Origin: Candidatus Altiarchaeota archaeon
GTDB taxonomy: Archaea > Altiarchaeota > Altiarchaeia > IMC4 > SCGC-AAA252-I15
Direction: 5' to 3'
Length of the DNA: 64,000 nt
Assembly: GCA_043804895.1 (NCBI GenBank)
Contig: JAZDIN010000025.1
Span: forward strand, 36,764 to 100,763
A program made the position numbers and the translations under genes. Below the pieces are notes generated by a model. That model worked only from the letters and a program-made list of their open reading frames with translations. It did not search any database and was not told the DNA's origin. Positions 1,032 to 32,405 of the stretch are shown one piece after another. How positions within the stretch are numbered: position 1 is the stretch's first letter; every line of letters starts with the position of its first letter.

Positions 1032-1385
1032 ATGCTTTACGCGGCCTTGTTCGTCTCAGTATTGGGTTTGTTTTTGATTTCATTCATCTCTCCGTCGATT
1101 AAGCCTCCGCGTTCCAGCGTCTGTGATGTAACATCATCCTCGCTTGAGAAGGTTGTCGTGGTAGGAGGCAACATCACAAGGGTTCATGAGTTCAAGGGCG
1201 GGAGTATGGCCTTGACTTTGTCTGACAGTGGTTGCGACATTGAAGTCTACCTGTCATATGACGTTGCAGCATCACTCAACAGCACCACCCTACTTGGTAG
1301 GCGTGTGGAGTTGTCGGGGGTTGTGCAGATTTATCGGGGTAGGGTGGAGGTTGTGGTTGAGAAGCCTACTTTGGTGTTGAGATGA
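1032..1385 (+). CDS. membrane-anchored OB-fold (tRNA_anti-like) nucleic-acid-binding domain protein
   Basis: N-terminal hydrophobic helix followed by ...VVVVGGNITRVHEFKGGSMALTLSDSGCDIEVYL...GRRVELSGVVQIYRGRVEVVV, a typical OB-fold nucleic-acid-binding segment. Its stop overlaps the start of the next gene (ATGA). Confidence 0.45.
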   Translation: MLYAALFVSVLGLFLISFISPSIKPPRSSVCDVTSSSLEKVVVVGGNITRVHEFKGGSMALTLSDSGCDIEVYLSYDVAASLNSTTLLGRRVELSGVVQIYRGRVEVVVEKPTLVLR

Positions 1386-3556: not shown

Positions 3557-3630
3557 TGCGACTGCCGGGATTTGAACCCAGGTCGCGAGATTGGCAACCT
3601 CGAGTGATAGCCAGACTACACTACAGTCGC
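3557..3630 (-). tRNA. tRNA-Gly (anticodon GCC)
   Basis: Manual cloverleaf fold: acceptor GCGACTG/CAGTCGC, D-arm GTGT-AGTCTGGCTA-TCAC, anticodon stem CGAGG/TCTCG with loop TTGCCAA (anticodon GCC), V-loop CGAC, T-arm CTGGG-TTCAAAT-CCCGG, discriminator A. No encoded CCA. An AT-rich TATA-like box lies upstream (3643-3670). Confidence 0.8.
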
Positions 3631-15019: not shown

Positions 15020-15038
15020 TACAAATACGCGAGGATAT

Positions 15039-15089
15039 TCGCTAGACTGCAGTCTAGCGAATGTGTGCGAGCATGGCTCGCCCACATTC
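15039..15089. promoter_or_regulatory. two adjacent palindromes upstream of the GT4 gene: TCGCTAGACTGCAGTCTAGCGA (perfect, 22 nt) and GAATGTGTGCGAGC-ATG-GCTCGCCCACATTC (31 nt, one mismatch)
   Basis: Read directly; they lie 20-70 nt upstream of the 15019 start and downstream of the stop of the methyltransferase gene. Confidence 0.4.
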
Positions 15090-15172
15090 CCTTTACTCGC
15101 TTGCACCTCCTACGTGTTTTCGACTGTTTGACATTTTAAGTGTTAATACTGACGCCTTTAAGATTCGGTCAT

Positions 15173-19305: not shown

Positions 19306-20082
19306 ATGAAAGTTGTTATACTCTGCGGTGGCCGCGGAACTCGGCTAAGGGAGGAGACAGAGTACAAGCCAAAGCCCCTGGTTGAGGTAGGCGGCAGGCC
19401 CCTACTCTGGCACCTAATGCACATCTATGCGAAATACGGGTTTAAAGAGTTTGTTCTGTGCCTCGGGTACAAGGGGAACTTGATCAAGGAGTATTTCCTT
19501 AATTACGATGCCATGAACAACGACTTCACAATACACCTTGGTGACCGGAAGGAGATTGCGGTGCACAGCATGCACCGCGAGCATGACTGGCGTGTAACCC
19601 TAGCTGACACCGACGAGGAGTCACTAACTGGCACAAGGATTAAGAAGATAGAAAAGTACATTGACAGCGACACGTTCATGTTAACATACGGAGATGGACT
19701 GGCAGACGTCGATATAAAAAAACTACTTGAATTCCACAAATCCCATGGGAAGATCGGGACCATCACTGGAGTGCACCCCTCATCACGCTTCGGTGAGATA
19801 CAAGCCGAGGGGGGCAGGGTATTGTCCTTCCACGAGAAACCAAGTTCATTCTCAGGGCTTATAAACGGCGGATTCTTCGTCTTCGATAAAAAGTTCTTCA
19901 GGTACCTAGACCTGGAAAAGAATCAAGCCCTAGAGGCAAAGCCCCTCGTTGAACTATCACGTGAGGGTGAGCTTATGGTCTTCAAGCATGAGGGGTTCTG
20001 GCAATGCATGGACACCTACCGGGAGGTCGAGATTCTGAACAACTTATGGAACTCTGGAAAACCTCCCTGGAAAATCTGGTGA
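19306..20082 (+). CDS. rfbF: glucose-1-phosphate cytidylyltransferase (RfbF/DdhA)
   Basis: MKVVILCGGRGTRLREETEYKPKPLVEVGGRPLLWHLMHIYAKYGFKEFVLCLGYKGNLIKEYFLNY is the characteristic RfbF N-terminus; 258 aa. Confidence 0.8.
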   Translation: MKVVILCGGRGTRLREETEYKPKPLVEVGGRPLLWHLMHIYAKYGFKEFVLCLGYKGNLIKEYFLNYDAMNNDFTIHLGDRKEIAVHSMHREHDWRVTLADTDEESLTGTRIKKIEKYIDSDTFMLTYGDGLADVDIKKLLEFHKSHGKIGTITGVHPSSRFGEIQAEGGRVLSFHEKPSSFSGLINGGFFVFDKKFFRYLDLEKNQALEAKPLVELSREGELMVFKHEGFWQCMDTYREVEILNNLWNSGKPPWKIW

Positions 20083-20135
20083 AATGCCTTTAACTTCTCT
20101 TTAAAACCCTTAACTGTTAAATAATTTAAAGTAAA

Positions 20136-21134
20136 ATGGATGACAGGTTTTGGAGGGACAGAAATGTCTTCGTGACCGGTTGCACTGGCTTCCTCGGGTC
20201 GTGGCTTACGAAAGCATTGGTTGATCGAGGGGCTAATGTCACCGGACTTATTCGTGACTGGATTCCAAAATCCAACCTGGTACTGACCGGATACAACGAA
20301 AAGGTTAGTGTCGTGAGGGGAGCGGTCGAGGATTATCCACTACTGGAAAGAACGCTGAACGAATATGAAATAGATACAGTATTCCACCTGGCAGCTCAGA
20401 CCATAGTAACAATAGCTAATAGGGGCCCGTTATCGACATTCGAGACCAACATAAAAGGAAGCTGGAGCCTGCTCGAGGCCAGTAGGAGGGCTCCTCTTGT
20501 CAGGCGCATCATATGCGCCTCAAGCGACAAGGCATACGGAAACCAGATACGGCTTCCCTACAGCGAGGACACACCTCTTGAGGGCAGGCATCCGTACGAC
20601 GTCTCCAAGAGTTGCGAAGACCTAATCGCTAGATCATACTTCGAGACCTACGGCCTCCCGGTCTGCGTCACAAGGTGCGGGAACTTCTTTGGCGGCGGGG
20701 ACTTGAATTTCAACAGGATCGTGCCCGGGACGATACGTTCTGTAAACTACGGTGAGAGGCCACTGATTCGAAGCGATGGAAAATCCACTAGGGATTACAT
20801 ATACATAGAGGACGCTGTAGAAGCCTATATGCTCTTGGCTGAGCGGATGGGCGACAAAAAAATCCACGGCGAGGCGTTAAACTTCAGCAACGAGAAGCCG
20901 ATGACAGTCAAAGGGCTGGTGGAAAGGATAATCAAGATTATGGGAAGTGACCTCAGACCGGTAATACTGGACGAGGCATCCAACGAGATACGGCACCAGT
21001 ACCTTTCTTCAAAAAAGGCGAGGAAAATTCTGAATTGGAAGCCACACTACGACTTTGAGGCGGGTATGAAAAGGACGATAGAATGGTATGTCGGATTCTT
21101 GAACGATGGGGTAGTCATCGGGGAGAAACACTGA
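20136..21134 (+). CDS. rfbG: CDP-glucose 4,6-dehydratase (RfbG/DdhB)
   Basis: [20 protein letters not shown], the SDR YxxxK region ...[11 protein letters not shown]..., about 330 aa; it lies adjacent to rfbF. Confidence 0.75.
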
Positions 21135-21213
21135 TGGACGAATGACTGTCCTCGCACGAAGACAACCCCCGGGAAGAATATTAAGGGATAATATACAAGT
21201 GTTGTGAAAGAAG

Positions 21214-22434
21214 ATGATTAAAGTTAAAAGGCGGGAGACGTGTCGCATCTGTGGTTGCCATGACATGCGTAAGGTAATTAATTTTCCTGAATGCCCCCTA
21301 GTTGAGGATTTCAGGACAAAAAAGGATGTGGGTGGTGAATTCCTCTATCCTCTAACCATTTACGTGTGCGAAAGATGTAAGCAGATACAGACACTACACG
21401 ATGTGGATGTGAGCGGCTACTATAAGGGTTTCATATACTCCGTCGCAAGTTCGCCTTTCGCCAGACAGTTCATGAAGAATTTAGCAGGCTCACTCTTTGA
21501 GAGATACAACCTGAAGAAGGGAGCGTCCGTCCTTGAGATAGGCAGCGGTGACGGTTTCCAGTTGTCTTGCTTCCAAGACATTGGGGCTAGGGTGTACGGT
21601 ATAGAACCCTCCAAGCCTCTTGTTGATATAAGCTTGGAAAGGGGGGTCCCAGTCATACAAGCGCTTTTCTCCAATGATGTCCTTGACAGAATACCCAAAG
21701 AACTCTTCCCATTTCAGGTGGTCCTTCTGACCTACACATTCGACCACCTTACTGACCCCTTATCCTTCCTTGTCTCAATAAGAGATTTCATAGACCAGAA
21801 GAAGGGTCTTCTGGTACTTGAGGTGCACGATCTTCCGAAGATAATGGAACGAAGAGAGTACTGCCTTTTCGGTCACGAGCACCCATGCTATTTCAGCGTT
21901 GACACAATACGCAACGTCCTTGTTGAGGGTGGGTTCGAGCTTGTTGACTGCGAACTTCTACCTGAAAGCCAAAGACGCGGGAACTCGTTGCTTGTCGTGG
22001 CAAAGCCTGCCGCTGACCCACAAAAAACCCCGAAACACCTAATCTATCCCAAATTACAACGACTAGAAGCCTATGATGCGTTCGGGCATCAGGTGGAGAA
22101 TAGCCTGTACAATTTTAGAAACCAGGTAATCGAAGATAAAAAAATAGGCACAACGTTCGCTGGATATGGGGCTGGAGGAAGGGGGGTTCTTACCCTGGCG
22201 ATGACGGGTCTTAAGTCAGATGATATAGGATACCTATGCGACAAGAATGAGAAATTCTACGGGTACTACACTCCCAAGTCACATGTGCCGATAGTGCCGC
22301 TTGAACACGCGCTTGAGAACATGGTCGATAAAATGATCGTGTTTTCATACGGATACATGAAGGACATATCACAAGACATGTCAGGATTTACAAAAAGCGG
22401 GGGCATTCTGATACCCCTGCTGGAGCTACTCTAA
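21214..22434 (+). CDS. NDP-hexose C-methyltransferase (TylC3/EryBIII-type: N-terminal Zn ribbon + class I MTase + C-terminal C-methyltransferase domain)
   Basis: CRICGCHDM...CERCKQIQ zinc ribbon; LEIGSGDGFQ SAM motif; a roughly 150-aa C-terminal domain typical of sugar C-3 methyltransferases. Confidence 0.6.
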   Translation: MIKVKRRETCRICGCHDMRKVINFPECPLVEDFRTKKDVGGEFLYPLTIYVCERCKQIQTLHDVDVSGYYKGFIYSVASSPFARQFMKNLAGSLFERYNLKKGASVLEIGSGDGFQLSCFQDIGARVYGIEPSKPLVDISLERGVPVIQALFSNDVLDRIPKELFPFQVVLLTYTFDHLTDPLSFLVSIRDFIDQKKGLLVLEVHDLPKIMERREYCLFGHEHPCYFSVDTIRNVLVEGGFELVDCELLPESQRRGNSLLVVAKPAADPQKTPKHLIYPKLQRLEAYDAFGHQVENSLYNFRNQVIEDKKIGTTFAGYGAGGRGVLTLAMTGLKSDDIGYLCDKNEKFYGYYTPKSHVPIVPLEHALENMVDKMIVFSYGYMKDISQDMSGFTKSGGILIPLLELL

Positions 22435-22435
22435 C

Positions 22436-23365
22436 ATGCGTGCTCTGATCAGCGGCGGAACAGGTTTTGTGGGCTCTCATCTGGTTCGCCGACTGGTCGG
22501 TGACGGATGGGATGTCTCGATTCTGGTCAGACGGGAAAGCGATACTTGGAGGATAAAGGATGTCCTGCGTGACGTTGCCGTCGTATATGGGGACCTGAGG
22601 AAACTAAGCGACTGCGAAGAGAAGATAAAATCGCTGAAACCTGAAGCACTCTTCCATCTTGCATGGCATGGCGCGGGCTCTAACAAGGATGCTAACAACA
22701 TTGGACAGGTGTTCGACAACATCGATGGGAGCCTTAAGCTTGTGAAGGCTTGCGGTGAAACTGGATGCAGCTGCATGGTTGGGCTAGGTTCGGTCCTTGA
22801 GTACGGTAACTACAGCATCCCCGTCAAAGAGGATGGTATAGCCACCCCAAAGACGCTATACGGAACAGCCAAATATGCAACAGGAGTTATCGCAGAGCGT
22901 TTATGTGCGCAATACGATATGAGATTCTCCTGGCTTAGGCTATTCTGGTCATACGGCCCAGCTGACATTGAGACCCGTATGATACCCTACGTGATAACGA
23001 GACTCCTTAAGGGTGAGACCCCCTCTCTGACTGAGGGGAGGCAGAAGTGGGACTACATCTATATTGACGACGCTGTGAACGCAGTGATTTCTGCAGCGGA
23101 AAATCAGAAGGCAAATGGATTCTTCAATCTCGGCTCTGGACAGGCTTATACAGTACGTCACGTCGCGGAAAAGGCAAGGGATCTCATTAACCCGAATCTG
23201 AAGCTTGGTTTGGGAAAGATACCCTACGCTCCCGGCCAGATTATGCACCTTGAGGCTGATATAAACTCCCTACGAACCGCGACAGGATGGAGTCCAAAAG
23301 TTGAGCTTGCCGATGGTTTGGCATCGACAATCTCATGGTATAAAAAACATATGGTGCGTTCATGA
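22436..23365 (+). CDS. NAD(P)-dependent SDR epimerase/reductase (CDP-sugar 4-reductase/epimerase, RfbS/RfbJ-like)
   Basis: MRALISGGTGFVGSHLVRRL Rossmann motif; YGTAKYATG (YxxxK); 309 aa. Confidence 0.6.
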   Translation: MRALISGGTGFVGSHLVRRLVGDGWDVSILVRRESDTWRIKDVLRDVAVVYGDLRKLSDCEEKIKSLKPEALFHLAWHGAGSNKDANNIGQVFDNIDGSLKLVKACGETGCSCMVGLGSVLEYGNYSIPVKEDGIATPKTLYGTAKYATGVIAERLCAQYDMRFSWLRLFWSYGPADIETRMIPYVITRLLKGETPSLTEGRQKWDYIYIDDAVNAVISAAENQKANGFFNLGSGQAYTVRHVAEKARDLINPNLKLGLGKIPYAPGQIMHLEADINSLRTATGWSPKVELADGLASTISWYKKHMVRS

Positions 23366-24219
23366 GCCTTAAGAGGAAGTCGTGTGACTCAAAAGCACTA
23401 GCCACGAGAGTGCGCGCGCATGCGCTCAACATGACACATAACGCCCGCGCCTCACACATCGGTTCGTCCCTTTCAGTCGCTGACATACTTACGGTACTTT
23501 ACAGCAGAATACTCCGCATCGACCCGGCCAGACCAGACTGGCCCATGCGTGACAGGTTCATACTAAGCAAGGGACATGCTGCCGCAGCACTTTACGCAGT
23601 GCTTTCAGAGTCAGGATTCCTTCAGAAAAACTCCCTGAAGACCTACTGCCAGGATGACTCGGCGCTTGGCGGCCACGCATCAATGAAGGTTTCGGGTGTA
23701 GACTTTTCAACTGGTTCACTTGGACACGGTCTTGCGATAGGATCTGGGATGGCTCTTGCAGCCAAGCGGGATCGCTGCAGATACAGGGTTTTCGTTCTTT
23801 TAAGCGATGGCGAATGTAATGAGGGTTCAATCTGGGAGGCAGCAATGTTCGCTGCACACCACAGGTTGGATAATCTGACCGCTATTATAGACTATAACAA
23901 ACTGCAGGCGTTTGGCCGAGTTGAGGATGTACTTGACCTTGAGCCTCTCGCTGAGAAATGGAAGTCCTTCGGATGGTCAACCCAAGAGATTGATGGCCAC
24001 AATCACGTTAAGATAGAAGGCGCTCTGAGTCGCGTTCCTCTCAAATCAGGTAAACCAAGCTGTATAATAGCGCACACAGTTAAAGGCAAGGGTGTCTCTT
24101 TCATGGAAGACCAACTTGACTGGCATTACAAGTCGCCTGACATAAAACAACTAACCTCAGCACTCATCGAGCTTGGGGTACCCAATAATGATCTCCCACC
24201 TTGGGGACAACGAAGATGA
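23362..24219 (+). CDS. transketolase, N-terminal (thiamine-diphosphate-binding) subunit
   Basis: HIGSSLSVADILTVLY, GHAAAALYA, ...LSDGECNEGSIWEAAMFAAHH...: the split-transketolase N subunit. Confidence 0.8.
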   Translation: MSLKRKSCDSKALATRVRAHALNMTHNARASHIGSSLSVADILTVLYSRILRIDPARPDWPMRDRFILSKGHAAAALYAVLSESGFLQKNSLKTYCQDDSALGGHASMKVSGVDFSTGSLGHGLAIGSGMALAAKRDRCRYRVFVLLSDGECNEGSIWEAAMFAAHHRLDNLTAIIDYNKLQAFGRVEDVLDLEPLAEKWKSFGWSTQEIDGHNHVKIEGALSRVPLKSGKPSCIIAHTVKGKGVSFMEDQLDWHYKSPDIKQLTSALIELGVPNNDLPPWGQRR

Positions 24220-24225
24220 AAAAAC

Positions 24226-25446
24226 ATGAACCAAAAACTTAACTCAAAAAAGGCTACAAGAGTGTACATGTGGCAGAATGGGCTTTGCATAACCTACTTG
24301 TTGATTTTCAGAAAGTTCCAGGAATTCCTTAAGGCGAATGGCTGGGAAATAGTCAACAAACCCGCCGATGCCGAGTGGATAGTGACCGGGGCATGCGGCA
24401 GCTTCCTACCAGTGATAGACGACTACCTCAGGCACATCGAGTCCTACCTCCGCGGAGGTAAGAAGGTCTTAGTATACGGCTGCCTGCCAAAAATTACTCC
24501 GGAAAGATACCATGAGTACGAAAAAAGGGCGAATCTTCTAATACCTCCGGAAAGGCCAGAGCTTATAGAGGAACTTATCCCAAATGCTAGGGTCAGATGG
24601 TCTGACATCCCAAACAATGGAGAGTTCAGGAGAGAAGACTACCGGAACTACGACCCCACGAGGAAGTATGTCCTAATACAATACGGTTGTAGCATAGAGT
24701 GCACATACTGCCCTCACGTGAAGGGTATAGGCAAGAACGTCAGCAGGTCTAAAAAGGAAGTGATAAATGAGGTCAATTCTATGCTAAACAACGGGGCCAA
24801 GACCATATTCCTTGAAGGCAGAGACATAGGGTCCTGGGGTATCGATCTCAAACAGCAAGACTCCTTCCCCAGCATTCTAGAGGAAATACTAACTCTGCCA
24901 GGCAACTTCGACGTCTACGTAAACCAATTTGGAGCTAACTGGGCAGTACACTACGGGAAAAGGCTATTCGAACTTTTTGAGAACCCGAAGATAAGGGACG
25001 TGCACATACCCATTCAGACGACAAGTGAACGGCTGTTGACGCTCATGGGACGTAACCCAAATGTTAAAAAACTCAGCCCACTCCTTAAGTCTTTGAGGGT
25101 GAACAGACCCAACCTCATGCTCAGGACCGACCTGATAATAGGTTTCCCGACCGAGACAGAGGAGGAACTCAATGACACCCTAGAGTTCGTAAAGGAACAT
25201 TTTGATGAGGTCGCATGTCACGGTCTCGAGCTTCACCCTAACACCAAACTCATGGAGATGAAGCTGCCCTTCTTCGACCAATCCTTAATCGAAGAGCGCG
25301 TAGAACGCGCGAGAAAATACCTTGAGGAAAGCGGTGTGGTGGCCCACCGCGGAGGCCAGGTCTTCAAGACTATGGTCAAGCGTGAGAGGGTGATGAAAAA
25401 GAAGAGGGGGAGGACACATCTGTCAAGGGGTGGCATTAAGAAATGA
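24226..25446 (+). CDS. radical SAM enzyme, MiaB/RimO-like (MTTase-type N-terminal domain + CxxxCxxC core)
   Basis: YGCSIECTYCPH is a radical-SAM cluster motif. An N-terminal region of about 130 aa with conserved Cys resembles the MTTase N-domain. No TRAM domain. Confidence 0.5.
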   Translation: MNQKLNSKKATRVYMWQNGLCITYLLIFRKFQEFLKANGWEIVNKPADAEWIVTGACGSFLPVIDDYLRHIESYLRGGKKVLVYGCLPKITPERYHEYEKRANLLIPPERPELIEELIPNARVRWSDIPNNGEFRREDYRNYDPTRKYVLIQYGCSIECTYCPHVKGIGKNVSRSKKEVINEVNSMLNNGAKTIFLEGRDIGSWGIDLKQQDSFPSILEEILTLPGNFDVYVNQFGANWAVHYGKRLFELFENPKIRDVHIPIQTTSERLLTLMGRNPNVKKLSPLLKSLRVNRPNLMLRTDLIIGFPTETEEELNDTLEFVKEHFDEVACHGLELHPNTKLMEMKLPFFDQSLIEERVERARKYLEESGVVAHRGGQVFKTMVKRERVMKKKRGRTHLSRGGIKK

Positions 25447-26357
25447 GGCCCACATTTGCCAACACTCTTTACGACCTAGCTAAACGAGACAAAGGGGTCT
25501 ACCTACTCACATCGGACGTAGGCTACTCAGTCTTCGAGAGGTTCATCGACGACCTACCCAAACAATACGTCAACGTCGGCATAGCTGAAGCCAATATGAT
25601 TGGCATTTCCGCGGGCCTCGCGTCTTCTGGAAAGAAGGTTTTCGCCTACTCAATGTCGCATTTCCTAACCCTCCGGTGTTACGAGCAGATAAAACTTGAC
25701 CTATGTTACCCAAAGCTCAACGTCAAGTTAATAGGTTCAGGAGGCGGTTTGACTTACGGCTCGCAGGGGCCAACTCACCAGTCGAATGAAGACATCTCGA
25801 TAATGCGTTCCCTACCCAACATGTGCGTCATTTGCCCAGGAGATCCTATTGAGACAGGGTATGCAGTGAGAGAGGCGTTGAAACGAGGCGGACCTGTCTA
25901 CATAAGGCTCAGTAAAAAAGATCCGATTGTGCACGCATCTGATGACATAGACTTCCGGATTGGTAAGGGCATCATCCTGAATAATGGTTCAGACCTTACA
26001 CTCATATCTACTGGCAACATGCTAGCTACGGCAAAGGAAGTGTGCGAGAGGTTTCAAGCCGATGGAAAAAAGGTGTGTCTTGTGAGCATGCACACTATCA
26101 AACCTCTTGACATTAGGTTGGTCAAGGAACTTGCTGAGACAGGCAGACCGATGTTTTCGCTTGAAGAGCACAGCTTAGTGGGTGGATTGGGAGGTGCAAT
26201 CTCAGAAGTTCTTGCGGAACTAGACTGCAAGGTCCCATTCCGGCGGATAGCCCTACCAGATGGTTTCTGCAACGTTATCGGAAGCCAAACCCACCTGCGG
26301 AGGAGTTACGGGCTAGACCCGGATAGTGTTTACAGGACTATCAGAGATATCCTATAA
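25443..26357 (+). CDS. transketolase, C-terminal (pyrimidine-binding/C-terminal) subunit
   Basis: FIDDLPKQYVNVGIAEANMIGISAGLA... is a transketolase C-subunit signature. Confidence 0.8.
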   Translation: MRPTFANTLYDLAKRDKGVYLLTSDVGYSVFERFIDDLPKQYVNVGIAEANMIGISAGLASSGKKVFAYSMSHFLTLRCYEQIKLDLCYPKLNVKLIGSGGGLTYGSQGPTHQSNEDISIMRSLPNMCVICPGDPIETGYAVREALKRGGPVYIRLSKKDPIVHASDDIDFRIGKGIILNNGSDLTLISTGNMLATAKEVCERFQADGKKVCLVSMHTIKPLDIRLVKELAETGRPMFSLEEHSLVGGLGGAISEVLAELDCKVPFRRIALPDGFCNVIGSQTHLRRSYGLDPDSVYRTIRDIL

Positions 26358-26393
26358 TCAAAAGTTATTAAGGGGGGGCACAGAATCTATACC

Positions 26394-27116
26394 ATGCCAG
26401 AAAGTGGATTCAAAGGTCCGATATTCTCGATAATCATCCCCTCATACAACGAAGAGGAAACATTGCCAATATCGATTCCCGATTTATTAAAGCATCTTGG
26501 AGAGGCGGAAATATCAGATTTTGAGCTCTTGATAGTAGATAATGGCTCCTTTGACAAAACAGGTGACGTAATACGCGAGCTAATGGGAAAAGACAGGAGG
26601 ATAAGGTCCGTAAGGGTTCCTTTCAACCAGGGGTGGGGGTTAGGCGTGATGTCAGGGTGCTCTCAGGCGTTGGGCAGGTACGTCGTGTATATGTGCGCGG
26701 ACCTGCAGGTGCCTCACAAAGCCCTGGTTGAGGTGTGCGAGAGGATTGCCAGGGAAGACTCTGACAAAGTTATCGTCAAGGTGAATAGGGTTGTTAGGGA
26801 TGACGGGGTAGCCAGGGGGATATCATCCAACCTCTACAACCTTTTTATTAACCTCATGTTCCTTGGGGTTTCACCAGACGTTAACGGCACACCCAAGGCA
26901 CTTTCCCTGAAGTTGTGGAGGCAGCTTGACGTGAGGAACAGGGGTTCGTTTACTGACACTGAGGTCTTGATTAAGGCTAAGAGGGCTAATGCGAGGATTA
27001 TCGAGATAGAAACAGTTTCAGTTAAGAGGATATGTGGTTCGTCCACTGTTAGGATATCCCAACTTCCTTTTGAGATGTTTTTTGACGCCATCAAATTCAG
27101 GCTAAACATTACCTAG
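26394..27116 (+). CDS. GT2-family glycosyltransferase (Dpm1-like)
   Basis: FSIIIPSYNEEETLP...LLIVDNGSFDKTGDV is a GT-A DxD-type N-terminus. Confidence 0.7.
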   Translation: MPESGFKGPIFSIIIPSYNEEETLPISIPDLLKHLGEAEISDFELLIVDNGSFDKTGDVIRELMGKDRRIRSVRVPFNQGWGLGVMSGCSQALGRYVVYMCADLQVPHKALVEVCERIAREDSDKVIVKVNRVVRDDGVARGISSNLYNLFINLMFLGVSPDVNGTPKALSLKLWRQLDVRNRGSFTDTEVLIKAKRANARIIEIETVSVKRICGSSTVRISQLPFEMFFDAIKFRLNIT

Positions 27117-27142
27117 ATGTCATAGACTGACTTGATGTCAAT

Positions 27143-29002
27143 GTGATTGGTGTGGGCGTTAATATGGTAAGGAAAATCAATGTAACGGATCATTGGCTTG
27201 TACTGGTAGTATTCCTTTTGTCTATAGTCTACATTACGGGATACGATTTCTCACTCAACTCAAATGACCCGAATGAGCAATTACCCCTTATCAAGAGGGT
27301 ATTGGATAAGGAGTATCTCACCAATGACTGGTATGTAAACAGCTCTCAGGCATTTTCTATACGGTCCTACTACACATACGTGGTCGCTTTTTTCCCCGAA
27401 TTCATCGGGCTGGCTAATGTGTACTTCATACTCTACTTACTGTCCTATTCACTCACAATCTATGCTTCCTATCGCATATCCAAAATGATGCTAAAGGACA
27501 ACCTTGCAACACTCCTAGTCATGTTCATGGTAATCTTCGGACCAAATGCTTCCCTTGGCAGCTTCAGACTAGTGGAATGGGAGTTCATACCAAGGTCGCT
27601 AGCTAACCCCCTGATACTCTTAGGGATATATTTCATCCTCAATGGTAGTTTGCCCGTTTCCGGATTCCTATTCGGCCTTGCAAGCATATTCCACCCGTCT
27701 ATGGGCATACTAATGGGTGTGGTGTTCTTGACATACCTACTCTTTAATGCGCGAAGTATCGGGCTTCGTGAAGTCCTAAAATCATCGGCATGTTTTATAG
27801 TGGTCAGCCTCTTCGTCATAATCCCAACAATACTCCTGGGCTCATCGGTTTCAGACCCGGAGGCCATTGCCATATTTACTAAGGTGGTTAGTCCTCACAT
27901 CTTCTTCCCCACATACTTCGGGTTAAATCAGTACCTAACGTTCATGTCACTTGCAGCTTTGGTCGCACTCGCAATAAAATATGGATCTAAGCTTGATAAT
28001 ACTAAGGCCGCATTTTCTTTGATTGCACTTATTTTAATGCTTGCATTAACTGGCGCATTTTTCACGGAAATCGTTCCATTGCCTTGGATTTACATATTCA
28101 ACCTCTTCAGGCCAATGCAGTTCGCCTACCTATTTGGATTCATATTTGTCTCTGGTTTTCTGGCGCATGAAATTAATCGCTCGACAAGTCCGGTCAATCG
28201 GATAATCCCCCTCGCCGTTGCATCTTCATTTGCAGCATCTTATGTGATGTCTGCCACCACGATACTCTACCTTGTGTATGTTAAGTACCTCAGGAACAGG
28301 ATAGAATCATTAGCCCCGAAAAAAGCATTGGTTGGAATAGTAGCTGTGTTAGTTCTAGCTACTGCATCCATTACCATATACCTGTTCCATCTAGAAGGGT
28401 CGTCCTTATATTTAAATTTGTCAAAGACATTGCGTCTTTTGGGCATATTTGTCTTTTTAGCATCTGCCTCTTCAAAGGTTATCGTATCGTACTCTAAACG
28501 TGTAATGGATGGGTACATAGAACATTTAATATCGATATTCATCGCCATGTTAGTACTATTCTCCGTATACCAGTCTGGTGGTCTAAGTACTGAAAGAATG
28601 CCGCGCGATCCAATGACAGCCAACCTTTATCAATGGGTAAAGGTCAATACACCCAAGGATGCGGTTTTTATAATACCCCCACACCTATATACATTCCGCA
28701 TTGGAGCTTCTAGAGCGGTTTTCGCCGATTCATTTTCAAGGCCTTTCACTGATGAAGGTATTATCGACTGGAGCAGCAGAATGAAGCAGTTTGCAAAAAA
28801 CTTCGACACGAGGTTAGGCTATGACCTCTCCAATGACTTGAAAGCTGGTTACAACTCAACAAACACCTTAGAATTTGAGCGTATTGGAAAAACGTACGGT
28901 GCGTCCTACGTACTTACTGAAAAACCGAAAGTGCTCGAAATTGATCCGGTATTTGAGAATGAAAAATACGTACTCTACAATCTAAGCCAATATTCAAACT
29001 AA
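27143..29002 (+). CDS. large polytopic membrane protein, putative GT-C-type glycosyltransferase / glycan polymerase
   Basis: 619 aa with at least 12 predicted TM helices and a C-terminal soluble domain. No WWDYG motif, so it is not called AglB. GC is visibly lower than in neighbouring genes. Confidence 0.3.
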   Translation: MIGVGVNMVRKINVTDHWLVLVVFLLSIVYITGYDFSLNSNDPNEQLPLIKRVLDKEYLTNDWYVNSSQAFSIRSYYTYVVAFFPEFIGLANVYFILYLLSYSLTIYASYRISKMMLKDNLATLLVMFMVIFGPNASLGSFRLVEWEFIPRSLANPLILLGIYFILNGSLPVSGFLFGLASIFHPSMGILMGVVFLTYLLFNARSIGLREVLKSSACFIVVSLFVIIPTILLGSSVSDPEAIAIFTKVVSPHIFFPTYFGLNQYLTFMSLAALVALAIKYGSKLDNTKAAFSLIALILMLALTGAFFTEIVPLPWIYIFNLFRPMQFAYLFGFIFVSGFLAHEINRSTSPVNRIIPLAVASSFAASYVMSATTILYLVYVKYLRNRIESLAPKKALVGIVAVLVLATASITIYLFHLEGSSLYLNLSKTLRLLGIFVFLASASSKVIVSYSKRVMDGYIEHLISIFIAMLVLFSVYQSGGLSTERMPRDPMTANLYQWVKVNTPKDAVFIIPPHLYTFRIGASRAVFADSFSRPFTDEGIIDWSSRMKQFAKNFDTRLGYDLSNDLKAGYNSTNTLEFERIGKTYGASYVLTEKPKVLEIDPVFENEKYVLYNLSQYSN

Positions 29003-30775
29003 TCTGTAGACGCTGAATCTCTCGTTCTCCCAGACGAGTTCACCAACTCCTCCCAATTTTTCCTTGTCGACATCCCTCAGACTACCATCCGACTGGGTGA
29101 AAATATAATAACTGACGTTCTGTGCCCTGGCAGTCTCAACTATCCTGTCCCACCCCTCATACGGCGGTATAACCGCCAGTAGTCCTGTGTAGAAGTTGAC
29201 GCGTTGACCGTCCTCTGACATTATGATACTCCCTTCAGGCACTGTCTCTCCAATCATATTCATCGCCTTAAGGTCAGGCCTTTCAGATATTCTTACGCCT
29301 GAGAGTAATGCAGTCTGAGCGACCATAGAAAGTACAATAACCGTTAAGAGTACACCCCTCCTCCCCACAATATATGCTGCTGCATATGCTAAAAATATTG
29401 GGGTTAAGGGGCTTAGGAAGTCCACGCTAACTCCGTCCGACTTCGGGTAGCCAGTCCACAATGGGCCCACAAAGCTGGAGAATGCTAGAACAAAAAACAG
29501 TAATGTGCCACTCACATGCCTTAGGTTGGATAGTATGTAAAGGATGGCGGCCGTGAAGGCCAATAAGCTAACTAGGTTCATAACAGAATTGCTCATAGTC
29601 CAAATAAACCCATACTCCTGCATCTTGTTCGGTGGCGGGACGTACGTTGTCACCATATTTATCAGCCGATACATCACGGCCTTCAATACCCCGAGAACAC
29701 CGCCCCCCAACCTTTCAAGATAGGATGTTGGTGTTGGGGGGGTTAGTGACTGGTATTCATCCCACTTCGTCATGAACGGCACATACCTTGCCGTCGTATA
29801 CAACGGATTGCCAAACAGGGTATAGTTTCTGACAAACCACGGTGTCAACACAACAATGAAAATCAAAGCAGCCATAATATTCTCCCTCGCGAATATCTGA
29901 TACTTATTCCTTATGGCCTGATAAACGACCACTGCAATTATAAACCATACTGCCGTATAGTGCGTCAGATAAGCGAATGCGGCAGATAGTGCCGCATACG
30001 CACTGAAACCCCTACCCCTCACTGTGAAATAAACCATCATCGTTACGAAAAAAGAAACCATTACTCTCGGTTCAAGCTCTATAGAACGCGAGATAAGGAA
30101 AAAATTCACAGAAACCAGCAATCCACTTATCCACCCTACCTCATGATTGAACAGCCTAGTTGCCAGAAGATAAATACCTAATACCAGGAAAACCCCGAAG
30201 AATACATTAATTGAGACTGCTGAGGCGTAGTCTACTCCATTAAACACCATGCCAAGAGCGTGCAGAAAATCCTGAAGTGGTGGCCTATAATTGCCAGGAA
30301 ACGGGAATCTAGTGTATGGTGTCCAGTAATTGTCTATAACATCAGTTGTGAACCATTCAGCGGTGAGGAAGCTTCTAGCATAAGAATAGTGGGCGTATGA
30401 GTCGCCGACAACGGGATTGGGGTTTAGTTCAAACAAAGCTACTCTCAAGGCCAATGCCAATACCAGTACCACAATAAACTTATCTAATCCACTGCTAACT
30501 CCTGCCGCCTCCCGACGTTTGAGCCCCTCTGGCCTCCACTTTCTTGCGGACAGATACACTACTACTGTGGCAAATGTAACCGCTCCCAACAGTGCATCGA
30601 ACCCAAGCTGGACCCCAATGGCGTGAAGTACAAGGGCGCATGAACCGTACAAGAGGGTCGAAGCCAAGACTGCAGCACAGAACCGTTCGACAGCGTCAAG
30701 CCTCCTGTCAAGGCCAGACAGAACGTAACCGGGGGCATAAAAGAACACCACTGTCCTTAGAAATTCTATTATCAT
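28994..30775 (-). CDS. GT-C-family glycosyltransferase (ArnT/PMT-like polyprenyl-phosphate-sugar-dependent transferase)
   Basis: Polytopic membrane protein with DSYAHYSYARSF in the first loop (ArnT/PMT-like acidic motif). The start was chosen at MIIEFLRTVVFF (ATG 30775) with an AT-rich promoter upstream. Confidence 0.45.
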   Translation of the reverse strand: MIIEFLRTVVFFYAPGYVLSGLDRRLDAVERFCAAVLASTLLYGSCALVLHAIGVQLGFDALLGAVTFATVVVYLSARKWRPEGLKRREAAGVSSGLDKFIVVLVLALALRVALFELNPNPVVGDSYAHYSYARSFLTAEWFTTDVIDNYWTPYTRFPFPGNYRPPLQDFLHALGMVFNGVDYASAVSINVFFGVFLVLGIYLLATRLFNHEVGWISGLLVSVNFFLISRSIELEPRVMVSFFVTMMVYFTVRGRGFSAYAALSAAFAYLTHYTAVWFIIAVVVYQAIRNKYQIFARENIMAALIFIVVLTPWFVRNYTLFGNPLYTTARYVPFMTKWDEYQSLTPPTPTSYLERLGGGVLGVLKAVMYRLINMVTTYVPPPNKMQEYGFIWTMSNSVMNLVSLLAFTAAILYILSNLRHVSGTLLFFVLAFSSFVGPLWTGYPKSDGVSVDFLSPLTPIFLAYAAAYIVGRRGVLLTVIVLSMVAQTALLSGVRISERPDLKAMNMIGETVPEGSIIMSEDGQRVNFYTGLLAVIPPYEGWDRIVETARAQNVSYYIFTQSDGSLRDVDKEKLGGVGELVWENERFSVYRLV

Positions 30776-30855
30776 TGGTCTGCTAAGACTATTGTTAAGT
30801 AATATATTTATCCTCAATCCAACGGTTTTTAGCATACACTGACATAGCATAAACC

Positions 30856-31635
30856 ATGGGTTCACCCGCAGGTAACGGCTGCCTAGTTGACCGAATCTTG
30901 AAGAAATGCGGGGCATTGGGCATTGTGGACTTGTGGGCTTCCACAGACAAGAAGTACATAGACCATCACGAGAATTTCCTGAACCTCACAGAGGAGGGGT
31001 ACTCCGATGACCTCATAAAACATATGCGTGATGTCAGCGGACTTATTGGTGTGGACATAGGCTCCGGTGGCGGCGTGGTTGCAAATAGGCTGGCATCTTT
31101 GGGCGCGTCAGTCAATGTGATGGACATATCATTAAACGCTGTGAGGCATGCTACGTCATCTGGTCGCGTTCTTGGGGTTCAGGCTAATGTAGAGCATATG
31201 CCCTACAAGGATGATGCGTTCGATTTCTGTGTCTGCACGGATGTTGTGGAGCATGTGGTTGAATATCATCAGCTAGTTAGTGAGATACAAAGGGTATTAA
31301 AACGAAGTGGTGTGGCTTATCTAACAGTACCAAACGCGTACAGTTGCAAGAACTTACTTCTTGATCTCATATTTCCTATCCTCACAGGAGTATCTCGAAA
31401 GGTCACTGGCCACAAGCCTCAACTACCCTCCCGGGGCCATATAAACCTCTTCAGCAGGAAGAGCTTTGCAACCTTTTTGTCCGAGAGTGGTTTCATCATA
31501 GAGGCTGTTGAGGGCAGTAAGGTCAAGGATATCTCCAGGTACCGTCTTGTGGTGAATCCTCTATCAACTCTAGCTGGCTTTATCATACCCTCGATGGTGG
31601 TTGATGAGCTCATGTTCATGGTAACACCCGAATGA
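30856..31635 (+). CDS. class I SAM-dependent methyltransferase (type 11)
   Basis: VDIGSGGGVVANRL...VMDIS, FDFCVCTDVVEHV. Confidence 0.65.
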   Translation: MGSPAGNGCLVDRILKKCGALGIVDLWASTDKKYIDHHENFLNLTEEGYSDDLIKHMRDVSGLIGVDIGSGGGVVANRLASLGASVNVMDISLNAVRHATSSGRVLGVQANVEHMPYKDDAFDFCVCTDVVEHVVEYHQLVSEIQRVLKRSGVAYLTVPNAYSCKNLLLDLIFPILTGVSRKVTGHKPQLPSRGHINLFSRKSFATFLSESGFIIEAVEGSKVKDISRYRLVVNPLSTLAGFIIPSMVVDELMFMVTPE

Positions 31636-31685: not shown

Positions 31686-32405
31686 TTACCTTCGCCTACT
31701 CTTGTATGTCAACCTCAGCGCAAAAAGGCTCACATATCGTATTCCCATCCGGATTAAGTTGAACTTTGTCTTTCCGAATCGCCTGTTGAAATAGGTCGTT
31801 GGTATCTCGCCGAGTTTGTAACCGTTCATATGGGCTTTTATCGCAAACTCTGGGCTGATGGAAAAGTCGCCTGCCTCAGGCATGGCGTGGTCGAAGACCT
31901 CCCTTTGAAATCCCCTATAGGCATTTGTTATGTCATGTATAGGTATCCTAAAAATCAACCTAGCAAGCCTTGTGTAAGTGGAGCCGTAAATCGCCTTATC
32001 AGTTCCGAGTTCCCCCCTTGAGCCGCCCCTCATGTAACGGGAGGCCATCACCATGTCGTAGCCTCTGTCGAGTTTGCCGACCATCTCCCCTATTATGTCT
32101 AGTTTGTCTGACCTGTCTGCCATAACCCAGATTACGTACTCTCCTCTTGAGCTTCTTGTGCCTTCAATCAGGGCGTATCCCATGCCATTATCTCCCCTCC
32201 TCCTGTGGATACACCTTATCCTGGGATTACTCTTAACTAGTTTGTCGCATATTTCCGGTGTCTTGTCGCTGCTGTTGTCATCAACGATTACAATCTCCCA
32301 GTCATCATCTGAAATGACTCCCAATAAATTTTCAACAAGGGGTGTGAGGTTGTCATCCTCGTTGTAGGCTGGAATTATGACAGAATACTTCACCATTCTA
32401 CTCAC
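31686..32405 (-). CDS. GT2-family glycosyltransferase (polyprenyl-phosphate sugar synthase-like)
   Basis: MVKYSVIIPAYNEDDNLTPLVE...IVIVDDNSSDKTPE. Confidence 0.7.
   Translation of the reverse strand: MSRMVKYSVIIPAYNEDDNLTPLVENLLGVISDDDWEIVIVDDNSSDKTPEICDKLVKSNPRIRCIHRRRGDNGMGYALIEGTRSSRGEYVIWVMADRSDKLDIIGEMVGKLDRGYDMVMASRYMRGGSRGELGTDKAIYGSTYTRLARLIFRIPIHDITNAYRGFQREVFDHAMPEAGDFSISPEFAIKAHMNGYKLGEIPTTYFNRRFGKTKFNLIRMGIRYVSLFALRLTYKSRRR

What the first reader, a model, noticed from the sequence alone, without database searches (positions are those of the whole stretch)
23362..26357. Split transketolase (N and C subunits) embedded in the sugar cluster and interrupted by a MiaB-like radical SAM gene
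Transketolase N-subunit (23362-24219) and C-subunit (25443-26357) genes flank a radical SAM ORF with an MTTase-like N-domain; start and stop codons overlap at both junctions, so all three are co-translated. Split TK pairs in polysaccharide clusters act as two-carbon (glycolaldehyde) ketol transferases that build branched-chain or chain-extended sugars. Together with the C-methyltransferase next door, this suggests a C-branched or higher-carbon sugar. Insertion of a radical SAM gene between the subunits appears to be undescribed.
Basis: partly seen in the sequence, partly recalled or inferred. Interest (0 to 1): 0.65.

Follow-up and report, generated by a model that had tools for sequence, protein, structure and literature searches.

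The report
Sugar-pathway transketolase pair flanking MiaB-like enzyme
An archaeal sugar-building operon carries a two-piece transketolase with a remodelled substrate pocket and, between its halves, a MiaB-like radical enzyme from an undescribed family tied to CDP-sugar pathways; the family matters more than the gene order.

Summary
The three ORFs and their domains are real. Only one of the two claimed start/stop overlaps exists: TK-N and the radical SAM gene are 6 nt apart.

They lie in a nine-gene, same-strand operon (19306-29002). It runs from glucose-1-phosphate cytidylyltransferase through a 4,6-dehydratase-like SDR, a 3-C-methyltransferase and a second SDR to a small GT2 and GT-C-like membrane proteins.

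The transketolase is not housekeeping-like. Six of six sampled nearest relatives sit in nucleotide-sugar operons with TK-N and TK-C adjacent. All eight examined sugar-cluster TK-C sequences replace three acceptor-side residues (E. coli H461, D469, R520) and keep the cofactor and donor-side residues.

The radical SAM protein belongs to a TRAM-less methylthiotransferase-like family of about 100 loci, almost always with CDP-hexose genes and methyltransferases. It keeps all six cluster cysteines and the MiaB/RimO fold.

Operons exist with the TK pair alone (L119) and with the radical SAM gene alone (L005). The interleaved order is therefore a lineage-specific arrangement of two separable modules, seen partly in two metagenomic relatives.

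The window's radical SAM clade associates with ThDP carboligases, either split TK or YerE-type. This supports a C2-branching role for the TK. All chemistry is inferred, and no description of this radical SAM family was found.

The parts
19306..20082 (+). Glucose-1-phosphate cytidylyltransferase (makes CDP-glucose); first gene of the operon
   Evidence: NCBIfam TIGR02623 equivalog, 333.9 bits, above the 300.25 cut-off. A homologue accompanies the radical SAM family in 26 of 32 loci with long flanks.
20136..21134 (+). CDP-glucose 4,6-dehydratase-like SDR
   Evidence: Pfam GDP_Man_Dehyd/Epimerase. TIGR02622 scores 217.6 bits, below the 278 cut-off but the best-scoring family.
21214..22434 (+). 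NDP-4-keto-sugar C-methyltransferase (TylC3/TcaB9 type, probably C3)
   Evidence: Pfam Methyltransf_13 + Methyltransf_14. Full-length match to D-mycarose 3-C-methyltransferase 4rv9 (E=1.9e-49), KijD1 and TcaB9.
22436..23365 (+). SDR epimerase/ketoreductase. Its stop overlaps the TK-N start (ATGA).
   Evidence: Pfam Epimerase, E=3e-43. The CMT-SDR pair precedes TK-N in L029, L116 and L119, and precedes the radical SAM gene in L005.
23362..24219 (+). Transketolase N-terminal (ThDP/PP-domain) subunit, sugar-cluster subfamily
   Evidence: Transketolase_N, E=2.5e-45. 52% identical to the validated split TK 6YAK and 63-69% identical to sugar-operon TK-Ns. H26, H66, H100, D155 and N185 are kept; the H261 equivalent (WH) is kept in the direct alignment to 6YAK, because the E. 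coli alignment gaps there. The motif is SDG instead of GDG, as in 117 of 120 nearest homologues.
24226..25446 (+). TRAM-less methylthiotransferase-like radical SAM enzyme with two predicted [4Fe-4S] sites
   Evidence: Radical_SAM plus a weak UPF0004 match. TIGR00089 scores 176 bits, below the 251 cut-off. C21/C57/C86 and C155/C159/C162 are invariant in 34 family members. Profile match to RimO 4jc0, E=8.5e-55. Model pLDDT 92.4; the best fold matches are MtaB, MiaB and RimO, TM 0.70-0.74.
25443..26357 (+). Transketolase C-terminal (Pyr + TKC domain) subunit with a remodelled acceptor pocket. Its start overlaps the radical SAM stop.
   Evidence: Transket_pyr + Transketolase_C. 36.5% identical to 6YAJ. 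R358, S385, E411 and H473 are kept. H461->G100, D469->Q108 and R520->K158.
26394..27116 (+). Small GT2, probably a polyprenyl/dolichyl-phosphate sugar synthase
   Evidence: Glycos_transf_2, E=5.7e-24. Weak NCBIfam matches to ArnC, PgfS, PpgS and AglJ-type enzymes. A GT2 also follows the radical SAM gene in L005 and the TK pair in L110, and lies just downstream of the TK pair in L121.
27143..29002 (+). Large membrane protein with DUF6798; candidate GT-C-type transferase. Last gene of the same-strand run.
   Evidence: Pfam DUF6798, E=1.2e-15; no NCBIfam match. The function is inferred from position only.
28994..30916 (-). Convergent PMT_2 (GT-C family) membrane glycosyltransferase
   Evidence: Pfam PMT_2, E=2.1e-9; NCBIfam LIC_10190 family membrane protein.

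Best explanation
The three genes are tailoring enzymes of one CDP-hexose pathway in an archaeal surface-glycan island.

Supported by homology:
- The operon makes CDP-glucose and converts it to CDP-4-keto-6-deoxyglucose.
- It then C-methylates the sugar next to the keto group, probably at C3.

Inferred:
- The TK-N/TK-C pair forms a ThDP enzyme of a sugar-cluster subfamily. It keeps transketolase cofactor and donor chemistry but has lost the residues that hold sugar-phosphate acceptors.
- It most likely adds a two-carbon ketol (hydroxyacetyl) unit to the C4 carbonyl of the CDP-keto-sugar, giving a branched tertiary alcohol. This is the reaction that YerE-type enzymes perform with pyruvate in sister clusters.
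- The adjacent SDR would then reduce a remaining carbonyl.
- The radical SAM protein is an independent module. It is a TRAM-less MiaB/RimO-like enzyme with a radical SAM cluster and an auxiliary cluster. It abstracts a hydrogen from an unactivated carbon of the sugar and most likely installs sulfur as a methylthio group.
- The small GT2 then loads the finished sugar onto a polyprenyl/dolichyl phosphate for transfer by the neighbouring GT-C-like proteins.

The TK-N / radical SAM / TK-C order is a lineage-specific gene arrangement. It joins two modules that occur separately elsewhere. It is not an obligate three-protein machine.

The confidence given (0.6) is for the overall reading: dedicated, separable sugar-tailoring modules. 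The specific chemistry is less certain: about 0.45 for C2 ketol branching by the TK and about 0.35-0.4 for sulfur/methylthio transfer by the radical SAM enzyme.
For: - Operon content and tight spacing.
- TK subfamily: six of six nearest TK-N homologues lie in nucleotide-sugar operons with overlapping TK-N/TK-C. L119 has the same NTP-transferase, dehydratase, CMT, SDR, TK-N, TK-C order at 32-67% identity, without the radical SAM gene.
- TK residues: cofactor and donor-side residues are conserved. H461, D469 and R520 become G, Q/A/L and K in all 8 sugar-cluster TK-Cs, but not in the validated TK 6YAJ.
- Radical SAM family: 104 tblastn-confirmed loci. In 32 with long flanks: CMT 26, G1P cytidylyltransferase 26, CmcI-type MT 24, RmlC 22. 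A methyltransferase is directly adjacent in 51 of 77 loci, and there is one true CmcI-radical SAM fusion.
- Radical SAM protein: six invariant cluster cysteines, RimO/MiaB profile and fold matches, no TRAM.
- Non-orthologous replacement: the window's radical SAM clade carries a ThDP carboligase (split TK or YerE-type) in 8 of 12 loci, against 1 of 92 elsewhere (Fisher p=1.7e-8, not corrected for relatedness).
- TK-N/radical SAM adjacency recurs in L029 and L116.
Against: - No enzyme of either subfamily has been assayed. Keto-sugar branching by split TKs is only a proposal in the literature.
- The TK donor (ketose phosphate, hydroxypyruvate or pyruvate) is unknown. TK-C scores slightly higher against the DXS model than against the TK model.
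- The roles of the two SDRs are not resolved. If the second SDR reduces C4 before the TK acts, no ketone acceptor remains.
- The only methylthio sugar in a surface glycan that my literature searches turned up is mycobacterial MTX, whose biosynthesis I did not examine.
- The frequent adjacent methyltransferases would be redundant for a self-methylating methylthiotransferase.
- The association statistic ignores phylogenetic relatedness, and many loci have short flanks.
- The archaeal assignment rests on a MAG label plus a few archaeal-type genes.
Confidence: 0.6

Rival explanations
1. The radical SAM enzyme does chemistry without sulfur transfer on the sugar or its two-carbon branch. Candidates are epimerisation, dehydrogenation, dehydration, or C-C bond formation/cyclisation. 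The auxiliary cluster would serve as an electron conduit or a substrate anchor. The adjacent methyltransferases would act on ordinary hydroxyl groups.
For: - TRAM is absent and the TIGR00089 cut-off is not reached.
- A conserved C-terminal HRGGQ motif replaces TRAM.
- Neighbours are O-/C-methyltransferases, not sulfur-supply genes.
- Carbohydrate-active radical SAM enzymes such as AprD4 appear among the weaker fold matches.
- Sulfur-containing glycan sugars are very rare in the literature searched.
Against: - All three auxiliary-cluster cysteines are invariant across about 30-66% identity.
- The best sequence and fold matches by a wide margin are methylthiotransferases.
- To my knowledge, this N-domain/auxiliary cluster has not been linked to any other chemistry.
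Confidence: 0.33
2. The split ThDP enzyme works like DXS or YerE rather than like a transketolase. It decarboxylates pyruvate or another 2-oxoacid and adds an acetyl/acyl branch to the 4-keto sugar.
For: - TK-C scores 180.5 bits against the dxs model and 166.4 bits against the TK model.
- YerE-type 2-oxoacid carboligases occupy the equivalent place in sister loci L001, L002, L004 and L030.
- Acceptor-side residues differ from those of transketolases.
Against: - TK-N matches TK models far better than dxs (308 vs 27.5 bits).
- H26, H66, H100 and H473, which handle the dihydroxyethyl donor in transketolases, are conserved.
- The closest solved protein is an active split transketolase.
Confidence: 0.2
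3. The three proteins form one obligate complex or coupled unit, and the radical SAM protein is needed for the function of the split transketolase.
For: - The genes are tightly packed, with a 6-nt spacer and a 4-nt overlap.
- TK-N/radical SAM adjacency is conserved in L029 and L116.
Against: - Six operons have TK-N/TK-C adjacent and no radical SAM gene between or beside the halves, including the syntenic L119.
- L005 and about 90 other loci have the radical SAM gene and no TK.
- L003 has both, on opposite strands, with TK-N/TK-C uninterrupted.
Confidence: 0.05
4. Coincidental neighbours: a housekeeping archaeal split transketolase and a tRNA methylthiotransferase that merely sit inside a glycan island.
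For: - Archaea commonly encode transketolase as two genes that need not be adjacent (PMC7661550).
- NCBI and JGI annotate homologues as MiaB.
Against: - Start/stop overlaps with the flanking sugar genes.
- Sugar-operon context of all sampled nearest homologues of both families.
- Loss of the H461, D469 and R520 equivalents.
- No TRAM domain; a score gap of 208 to 156 bits or less separates the family from true tRNA enzymes.
Confidence: 0.03

Closest known systems
Split-gene transketolase of Carboxydothermus hydrogenoformans (PDB 6YAK/6YAJ; PMC7661550)
   Same: Two-chain architecture, with the PP domain on one chain and Pyr+TKC on the other. 52% (N) and 36.5% (C) identity. ThDP/Mg ligands, catalytic Glu and donor-side histidines are conserved.
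   Different: The window's enzyme and its sugar-operon relatives have SDG instead of GDG. They replace H461/D469/R520 (E. coli numbering) by G, Q/A/L and K. They sit in nucleotide-sugar operons. The two genes are separated by another gene here.
Split transketolases proposed for hydroxyacetyl branching of keto sugars in miharamycin/amipurimycin biosynthesis (review PMC12247030)
   Same: A split TK encoded within a sugar-modification cluster, with a ketone proposed as acceptor.
   Different: Those are Streptomyces secondary-metabolite genes and are unproven in vitro. The case here is a CDP-hexose surface-glycan operon in an archaeal MAG with relatives across environmental bacteria. I could not compare sequences because none were available.
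YerE / yersiniose pathway (CDP-3,6-dideoxy-4-keto-glucose + pyruvate, AHAS-type ThDP enzyme)
   Same: CDP-glucose origin, 4-keto intermediate and ThDP-dependent C-C branching. YerE-like genes occupy the equivalent slot in sister loci of the same radical SAM clade.
   Different: The window has no E1-type 3-dehydrase and no AHAS-type enzyme. It has a transketolase-type enzyme, a 3-C-methyltransferase and a radical SAM enzyme.
MiaB / MtaB / RimO radical SAM methylthiotransferases (PDB 7MJV, 9A6D, 4JC0)
   Same: N-terminal three-Cys auxiliary-cluster domain plus a CxxxCxxC radical SAM core. Profile E=8.5e-55 to RimO. Fold TM 0.70-0.74.
   Different: No TRAM domain; a short helical tail with an HRGGQ motif instead. 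Below the family cut-off. The genomic context is CDP-hexose biosynthesis, not translation. The substrate is presumably a small molecule.
TylC3 / TcaB9 / KijD1 sugar 3-C-methyltransferases
   Same: The neighbouring gene 21214-22434 matches them over its full length, including the zinc-binding N-domain.
   Different: The known enzymes use dTDP-sugars in antibiotic pathways. Here the pathway starts from CDP-glucose.

Membership tests
Transketolase (EC 2.2.1.1), split-gene type | PP domain with the ThDP/Mg motif GDG-x(26-28)-N | tested here: met
   D149 and N179 align with E. coli D155 and N185. The first Gly is Ser (SDG), as in 117 of 120 nearest homologues.
Transketolase (EC 2.2.1.1), split-gene type | Pyr domain with the cofactor-activating Glu (E411), plus the TKC domain | tested here: met
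   TK-C E49 aligns with E411. Pfam Transket_pyr and Transketolase_C score above their cut-offs.
Transketolase (EC 2.2.1.1), split-gene type | Donor-side histidines H26, H66, H100, H473 (and H261) | tested here: met
   H32, H72 and H105 of TK-N and H112 of TK-C align. The H261 equivalent (WH) is conserved in the direct alignment to 6YAK; the E. coli alignment is gapped there.
Transketolase (EC 2.2.1.1), split-gene type | Acceptor/phosphate-binding residues H461, D469, R520 (with R358 and S385) | tested here: not met
   G100, Q108 and K158 replace H461, D469 and R520. R358 and S385 are kept. The same replacements occur in all 8 sugar-cluster TK-Cs; the validated 6YAJ keeps H, D and R.
Transketolase (EC 2.2.1.1), split-gene type | Ketol transfer between sugar phosphates | not testable with these tools
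   Needs an enzyme assay.
MiaB/RimO/MtaB methylthiotransferases | Radical SAM CxxxCxxC cluster motif | tested here: met
   C155-x3-C159-x2-C162, invariant in 34 sequences.
MiaB/RimO/MtaB methylthiotransferases | N-terminal UPF0004 domain with three Cys for the auxiliary [4Fe-4S] cluster | tested here: met
   C21, C57 and C86 are invariant. The profile alignment to RimO covers the N-domain. The Pfam UPF0004 match alone is below its cut-off (22.1 < 27).
MiaB/RimO/MtaB methylthiotransferases | C-terminal TRAM (RNA/protein-binding) domain | tested here: not met
   No PF01938 match in the window protein or in family members P0002-P0069, whereas most of the more distant matches (from P0079 on), which include annotated tRNA MiaB/MtaB enzymes, carry it.
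MiaB/RimO/MtaB methylthiotransferases | Score above the curated family cut-off (TIGR00089) | tested here: not met
   176.4 bits against a cut-off of 251.
MiaB/RimO/MtaB methylthiotransferases | Overall fold | tested here: met
   Model pLDDT 92.4. Foldseek top matches are MtaB 9a6d, MiaB 7mj* and RimO 4jc0, E=1e-22 to 1e-24, TM 0.70-0.74.
MiaB/RimO/MtaB methylthiotransferases | Methylthio transfer to a C-H of the substrate | not testable with these tools
   Needs anaerobic reconstitution and product analysis.
YerE-type CDP-branched-sugar (yersiniose-like) pathway | CDP-glucose synthesis and 4,6-dehydration | tested here: met
   TIGR02623 above its cut-off. A dehydratase-like SDR is present, though below the TIGR02622 cut-off.
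YerE-type CDP-branched-sugar (yersiniose-like) pathway | E1 (PMP-dependent 3-dehydrase) and an AHAS-type ThDP carboligase | tested here: not met
   No DegT/E1 or TPP_enzyme_N/M/C gene among the 19306-30916 operon genes or the further ORFs scanned between 11952 and 46242. Both are present in sister loci L001, L002 and L004.
Keto-sugar-branching split TKs proposed for miharamycin/amipurimycin | Sequence relatedness to those Streptomyces TK pairs | not tested

The most novel reading that the evidence does not exclude
The radical SAM protein represents the first methylthiotransferase (or sulfur-inserting enzyme) that acts on a nucleotide-activated sugar rather than on tRNA or a ribosomal protein. 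Together with a transketolase repurposed to branch a CDP-keto-sugar, it would build a C-methyl, C2-branched, sulfur-bearing 6-deoxyhexose. That sugar would be displayed on archaeal and many bacterial surface glycans.
Probability: 0.25. Interest if true: 0.85.

Novelty: new variant of a known kind. Interest (0 to 1): 0.6.

Why it matters
All characterised MiaB-type methylthiotransferases modify macromolecules. A conserved TRAM-less branch wired into about 100 CDP-hexose clusters, across Planctomycetota, Omnitrophota, Cyanobacteriota, Thermodesulfobacteriota, Proteobacteria and archaea, would extend this chemistry to sugars. It also predicts an unknown class of modified sugars, possibly containing sulfur.

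The transketolase subfamily, with its defined replacements at the H461, D469 and R520 positions, gives concrete and widespread candidates for ThDP-dependent hydroxyacetyl branching of keto sugars. That reaction has been proposed but never demonstrated, and it is of interest for biocatalytic synthesis of tertiary alcohols.

Two cultured bacteria carry the radical SAM family: Bowmanella denitrificans JCM 13378 and Fluctibacter corallii AA17. The question is therefore directly testable.

Tried and rejected
- An exact-sequence look-up of the window's radical SAM protein found no contig. The rest of the source genome could not be examined for a second transketolase or a tRNA MtaB.
- The contig of the closest relative, P0002, has no DNA on record. 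Its flanking partial genes overlap the radical SAM gene at both ends but could not be identified.
- In L029 and L116 the gene after the radical SAM gene is a B12-binding radical SAM gene, not TK-C, and the contigs end there. Whether TK-C follows is unknown.
- I considered an upstream ATG at 24216 that would overlap the TK-N stop. I rejected it because it is in another frame and ends after 8 codons.
- Literature searches for a TRAM-less methylthiotransferase in sugar or polysaccharide clusters, and for methylthio sugars, found nothing relevant except mycobacterial MTX.
- Two cited papers (Krug 2024; Romo 2019) are not held.
- A tblastn search of plasmids gave no match.
- I first took P0045 to be the L047 gene pair. 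It is a genuine CmcI-radical SAM fusion from another organism.
- One Pfam call failed because of a wrong coordinate range.
- I did not use the third large protein search or the representative-library search. Their output would be dominated by generic transketolases or methylthiotransferases and would not separate the subfamilies.

Full report
**1. Observation**

Three + strand ORFs occupy the stated coordinates: 23362-24219 (285 aa), 24226-25446 (406 aa) and 25443-26357 (304 aa).

Pfam results:
- Transketolase_N, E=2.5e-45.
- Radical_SAM, E=6e-14, plus a sub-threshold UPF0004 match (22.1 bits against a 27-bit cut-off).
- Transket_pyr, E=3.9e-34, and Transketolase_C, E=9.1e-24.

- The upstream SDR and TK-N overlap as ATGA.
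- The radical SAM gene and TK-C overlap as ATGA.
- The TK-N stop (TGA, 24217-24219) lies 6 nt before the radical SAM ATG at 24226, in the same frame. The ATG at 24216 belongs to another frame and terminates after 8 codons.

**2. Setting**

The genes lie in a same-strand run from 19306 to 29002:
- Glucose-1-phosphate cytidylyltransferase (TIGR02623, above the equivalog cut-off).
- A CDP-glucose-4,6-dehydratase-like SDR.
- A TylC3/TcaB9-type sugar C-methyltransferase. Its best solved match is D-mycarose 3-C-methyltransferase 4rv9, E=1.9e-49.
- A second SDR.
- TK-N, the radical SAM gene and TK-C.
- A 240-aa GT2 resembling polyprenyl-phosphate sugar synthases.
- A DUF6798 membrane protein. A convergent PMT_2 (GT-C) protein follows it.

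The wider stretch, about 12-47 kb, is a glycan island with glycosyltransferases, methyltransferases, amidotransferases and four further radical SAM genes.

NCBI labels the identical proteins as coming from a Candidatus Altiarchaeota MAG, on a 150,761-bp contig. Archaeal-type GlmM and LonB and a Cas4 in the window fit that label. Base composition shows no anomaly across the operon.

**3. The transketolase**

TK-N is 52% identical to the N chain of the only biochemically validated split transketolase (C. hydrogenoformans, PDB 6YAK). TK-C is 36.5% identical to its C chain, 6YAJ (PMC7661550).

TK-N is closer, at 63-69%, to a large set of metagenomic proteins. Of the 120 nearest, 117 share an SDG variant of the GDG ThDP motif.

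All six lie in nucleotide-sugar operons, and in each TK-N is immediately followed by an overlapping TK-C:
- L110: TK-N, TK-C, GT2.
- L112/L113: AglB ... NTP-transferase, dehydratase, DegT, SDR, CMT, TK-N, TK-C, flippase, GT2.
- L114: TylF, TK-N, TK-C, DegT, MT, SDR, NTP-transferase.
- L119.
- L120.
- L121.

L119 has exactly the window's order (NTP-transferase, dehydratase, CMT, SDR, TK-N, TK-C) at 57/32/45/46/67/46% identity, with no radical SAM gene.

I aligned the pair to E. coli TktA, fetched:
- Kept: H26, H66, H100, D155, N185, R358, S385, E411 and H473.
- Changed: H461, D469 and R520 become G100, Q108 and K158 of TK-C.
- The H261 position is gapped in this alignment. Its equivalent (WH) is conserved in the direct alignment to 6YAK.

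All eight sugar-operon TK-Cs examined carry G, Q/A/L and K at these three positions. 6YAJ keeps H, D and R. D469 and R520, together with R358 and S385, are cited as specificity-determining positions in E. coli TK (PMC7661550). From general knowledge, H461 is also a phosphate ligand.

So the cofactor and donor chemistry are transketolase-like, but the acceptor site is not that of a sugar-phosphate enzyme.

**4. The radical SAM protein**

It scores 176 bits on the MiaB/RimO subfamily model, against a cut-off of 251, and has no TRAM domain.

A database search found about 69 homologues above 200 bits. They are 31-66% identical, about 390 aa long and all TRAM-less. The score then drops to 156 bits or less for more distant proteins, most of which from P0079 on carry TRAM and include annotated tRNA enzymes.

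In a 34-sequence alignment, C21/C57/C86 (auxiliary cluster) and C155/C159/C162 (radical SAM cluster) are invariant. A C-terminal HRGGQ motif stands where TRAM would be.

The family profile matches RimO 4jc0 at E=8.5e-55 and MiaB at about 1e-37. An AlphaFold model (pLDDT 92.4) is most similar to MtaB, MiaB and RimO, with TM 0.70-0.74.

It is therefore a real member of the methylthiotransferase superfamily. It fails two defining features of the known enzymes: the TRAM domain and the family cut-off.

**5. Context of the radical SAM family**

Scans of species-representative genomes and of metagenomes gave 108 loci, plus two from exact look-ups; 104 were confirmed as family members by tblastn.

tblastn with the window's operon proteins and with conserved neighbour families gave these counts in 32 loci with at least 4 kb on both sides:

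| Neighbour | Loci (of 32) |
|---|---|
| C-methyltransferase | 26 |
| G1P cytidylyltransferase | 26 |
| CmcI-type methyltransferase | 24 |
| RmlC-type epimerase | 22 |
| Dehydratase | 15 |
| TylF-type methyltransferase | 14 |
| E1 dehydrase | 6 |
| YerE-like | 3 |
| TK | 2 |

A CmcI- or TylF-type methyltransferase is the direct neighbour in 51 of 77 loci where both sides are visible. One protein, P0045, is a true CmcI-radical SAM fusion.

Hosts span Planctomycetota, Omnitrophota, Cyanobacteriota, Thermodesulfobacteriota, Alpha- and Gammaproteobacteria and a Methanomicrobia MAG. They include the isolates Bowmanella denitrificans and Fluctibacter corallii.

The family is thus a conserved tailoring enzyme of CDP-hexose pathways, usually without any transketolase.

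**6. Is the interleaving meaningful?**

- L005 has G1P-CT, dehydratase, CMT, SDR, radical SAM and GT2 without a TK.
- L119 has the same core with a TK and no radical SAM gene.
- L003 has both, with TK-N/TK-C adjacent on the other strand.

The two modules are therefore separable, and the window combines them.

The TK-N/radical SAM adjacency is not unique. L029 and L116 carry radical SAM proteins 59% and 57% identical to the window's. Both show CMT, SDR, TK-N and radical SAM, followed by a B12-binding radical SAM gene. Both contigs end before any TK-C could be seen.

Split TK genes that are not adjacent are known in archaea (PMC7661550). I found no description of a radical SAM gene between them.

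**7. A stronger link between the modules**

In a neighbour-joining tree of 100 family members, the window falls in a clade of 13.

After dropping one duplicate locus, a ThDP-dependent carboligase lies nearby in 8 of 12:
- Split TK: window, L003, L029, L116.
- AHAS/YerE-type: L001, L002, L004, L030.

Outside the clade the figure is 1 of 92 (Fisher p=1.7e-8, not corrected for relatedness).

Two unrelated ThDP enzyme architectures occupy the same pathway slot. This is the best available evidence that the split TK does what YerE does: it adds a carbon branch to the 4-keto group of a CDP-deoxyhexose. The literature proposes this role for split TKs only in miharamycin/amipurimycin biosynthesis and stresses that it is unproven (PMC12247030).

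**8. Proposed mechanism**

Supported by homology: CDP-glucose formation, 4,6-dehydration and C-methylation next to the keto group.

Inferred:
- The TK transfers a dihydroxyethyl unit from a ketol donor to C4, giving a hydroxyacetyl-branched tertiary alcohol.
- An SDR reduces a remaining carbonyl.
- The radical SAM enzyme abstracts H from an unactivated carbon and, by analogy with its superfamily, installs a methylthio group from its auxiliary cluster.
- The GT2 loads the sugar onto a polyprenyl/dolichyl phosphate for the GT-C-like proteins.

Weak points:
- The donor is unknown. TK-C scores slightly higher on the DXS model.
- The order of the SDR steps is unknown.
- The adjacent methyltransferases would be redundant if the radical SAM enzyme methylates its own sulfur. 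This leaves room for sulfur insertion followed by S-methylation, or for chemistry without sulfur.

**9. Novelty**

My searches found no paper on TRAM-less methylthiotransferases in sugar clusters. The only methylthio sugar they turned up in a surface glycan is mycobacterial MTX.

I rate the finding as a new variant of known kinds. The gene order is a curiosity. The two subfamilies behind it are the substance.

Noticed in passing
window 34573-35637 (+), 36621-38036 (+), 38812-40251 (+), 43078-44463 (-): Four more radical SAM genes lie in the same glycan island: one SPASM-type and three B12-binding-domain enzymes. With the MiaB-like gene, that makes five radical SAM genes within 20 kb of sugar genes.
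   Followed up: partly
window 26394-27116 (+), 31686-32405 (-), 44556-45275 (-): Three paralogous GT2 genes of about 240 aa, each next to SDR genes. This suggests several parallel modules that load different modified sugars onto a lipid carrier.
   Followed up: no
window 11952-13847 (-) and 16270-18144 (-): Two asparagine-synthase-type glutamine amidotransferase paralogues sit among glycosyltransferase genes. One has a homologue next to the radical SAM gene in L002 (cluster c18).
   Followed up: no
window 3662-4966 (-) and 7129-8139 (+): Heptose-pathway-like genes: a fused sugar-phosphate nucleotidyltransferase/GmhB-type phosphatase and an HddA-like heptose-7-phosphate kinase (below its cut-off). 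An MraY/WecA-like transferase lies at 5003-6004.
   Followed up: no
window 1382-2161 (+): Cas4-family protein (TIGR00372, above its cut-off) at the edge of the window. A tRNA-Gly(GCC) lies at 3557-3630 (-).
   Followed up: no
window 24217-24228: TK-N and the radical SAM gene are in the same reading frame, separated only by TGA plus two codons (AAA AAC). Read-through would fuse them. The spacing is not conserved in L029 (about 90 nt) or L116 (28 nt), so this is probably incidental.
   Followed up: partly
L029 4075-4374 and L116 3787-5082: In the two closest loci with DNA, the MiaB-like gene is followed by a B12-binding radical SAM gene (76% identical between the two loci) rather than by TK-C. 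The window's three B12 radical SAM genes are only 23-36% identical to it in local tblastn matches.
   Followed up: partly
protein P0045 (647 aa, Logan assembly): A natural fusion of a CmcI/rhamnosyl-O-methyltransferase-type domain (residues 11-250) to the MiaB-like radical SAM enzyme (256-637). This points to functional coupling of the two activities.
   Followed up: yes
L062 about 13626-15362: A single-chain (fused) transketolase-like gene lies 4.5 kb from a radical SAM family member. It also lacks the H461 and D469 equivalents (Y and A).
   Followed up: partly
window 23362-24219 vs 25443-26357: Against the same partner operons, TK-N is much better conserved (63-69% identity) than TK-C (45-46%). 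This fits faster change in the acceptor-binding half.
   Followed up: partly
L112 1-1103: A close TK-N homologue's operon (NTP-transferase, dehydratase, DegT, SDR, CMT, TK-N, TK-C) lies about 1.7 kb downstream of an STT3/AglB oligosaccharyltransferase gene. The sugar-cluster TK subfamily therefore occurs in other archaeal-type glycosylation loci too.
   Followed up: no
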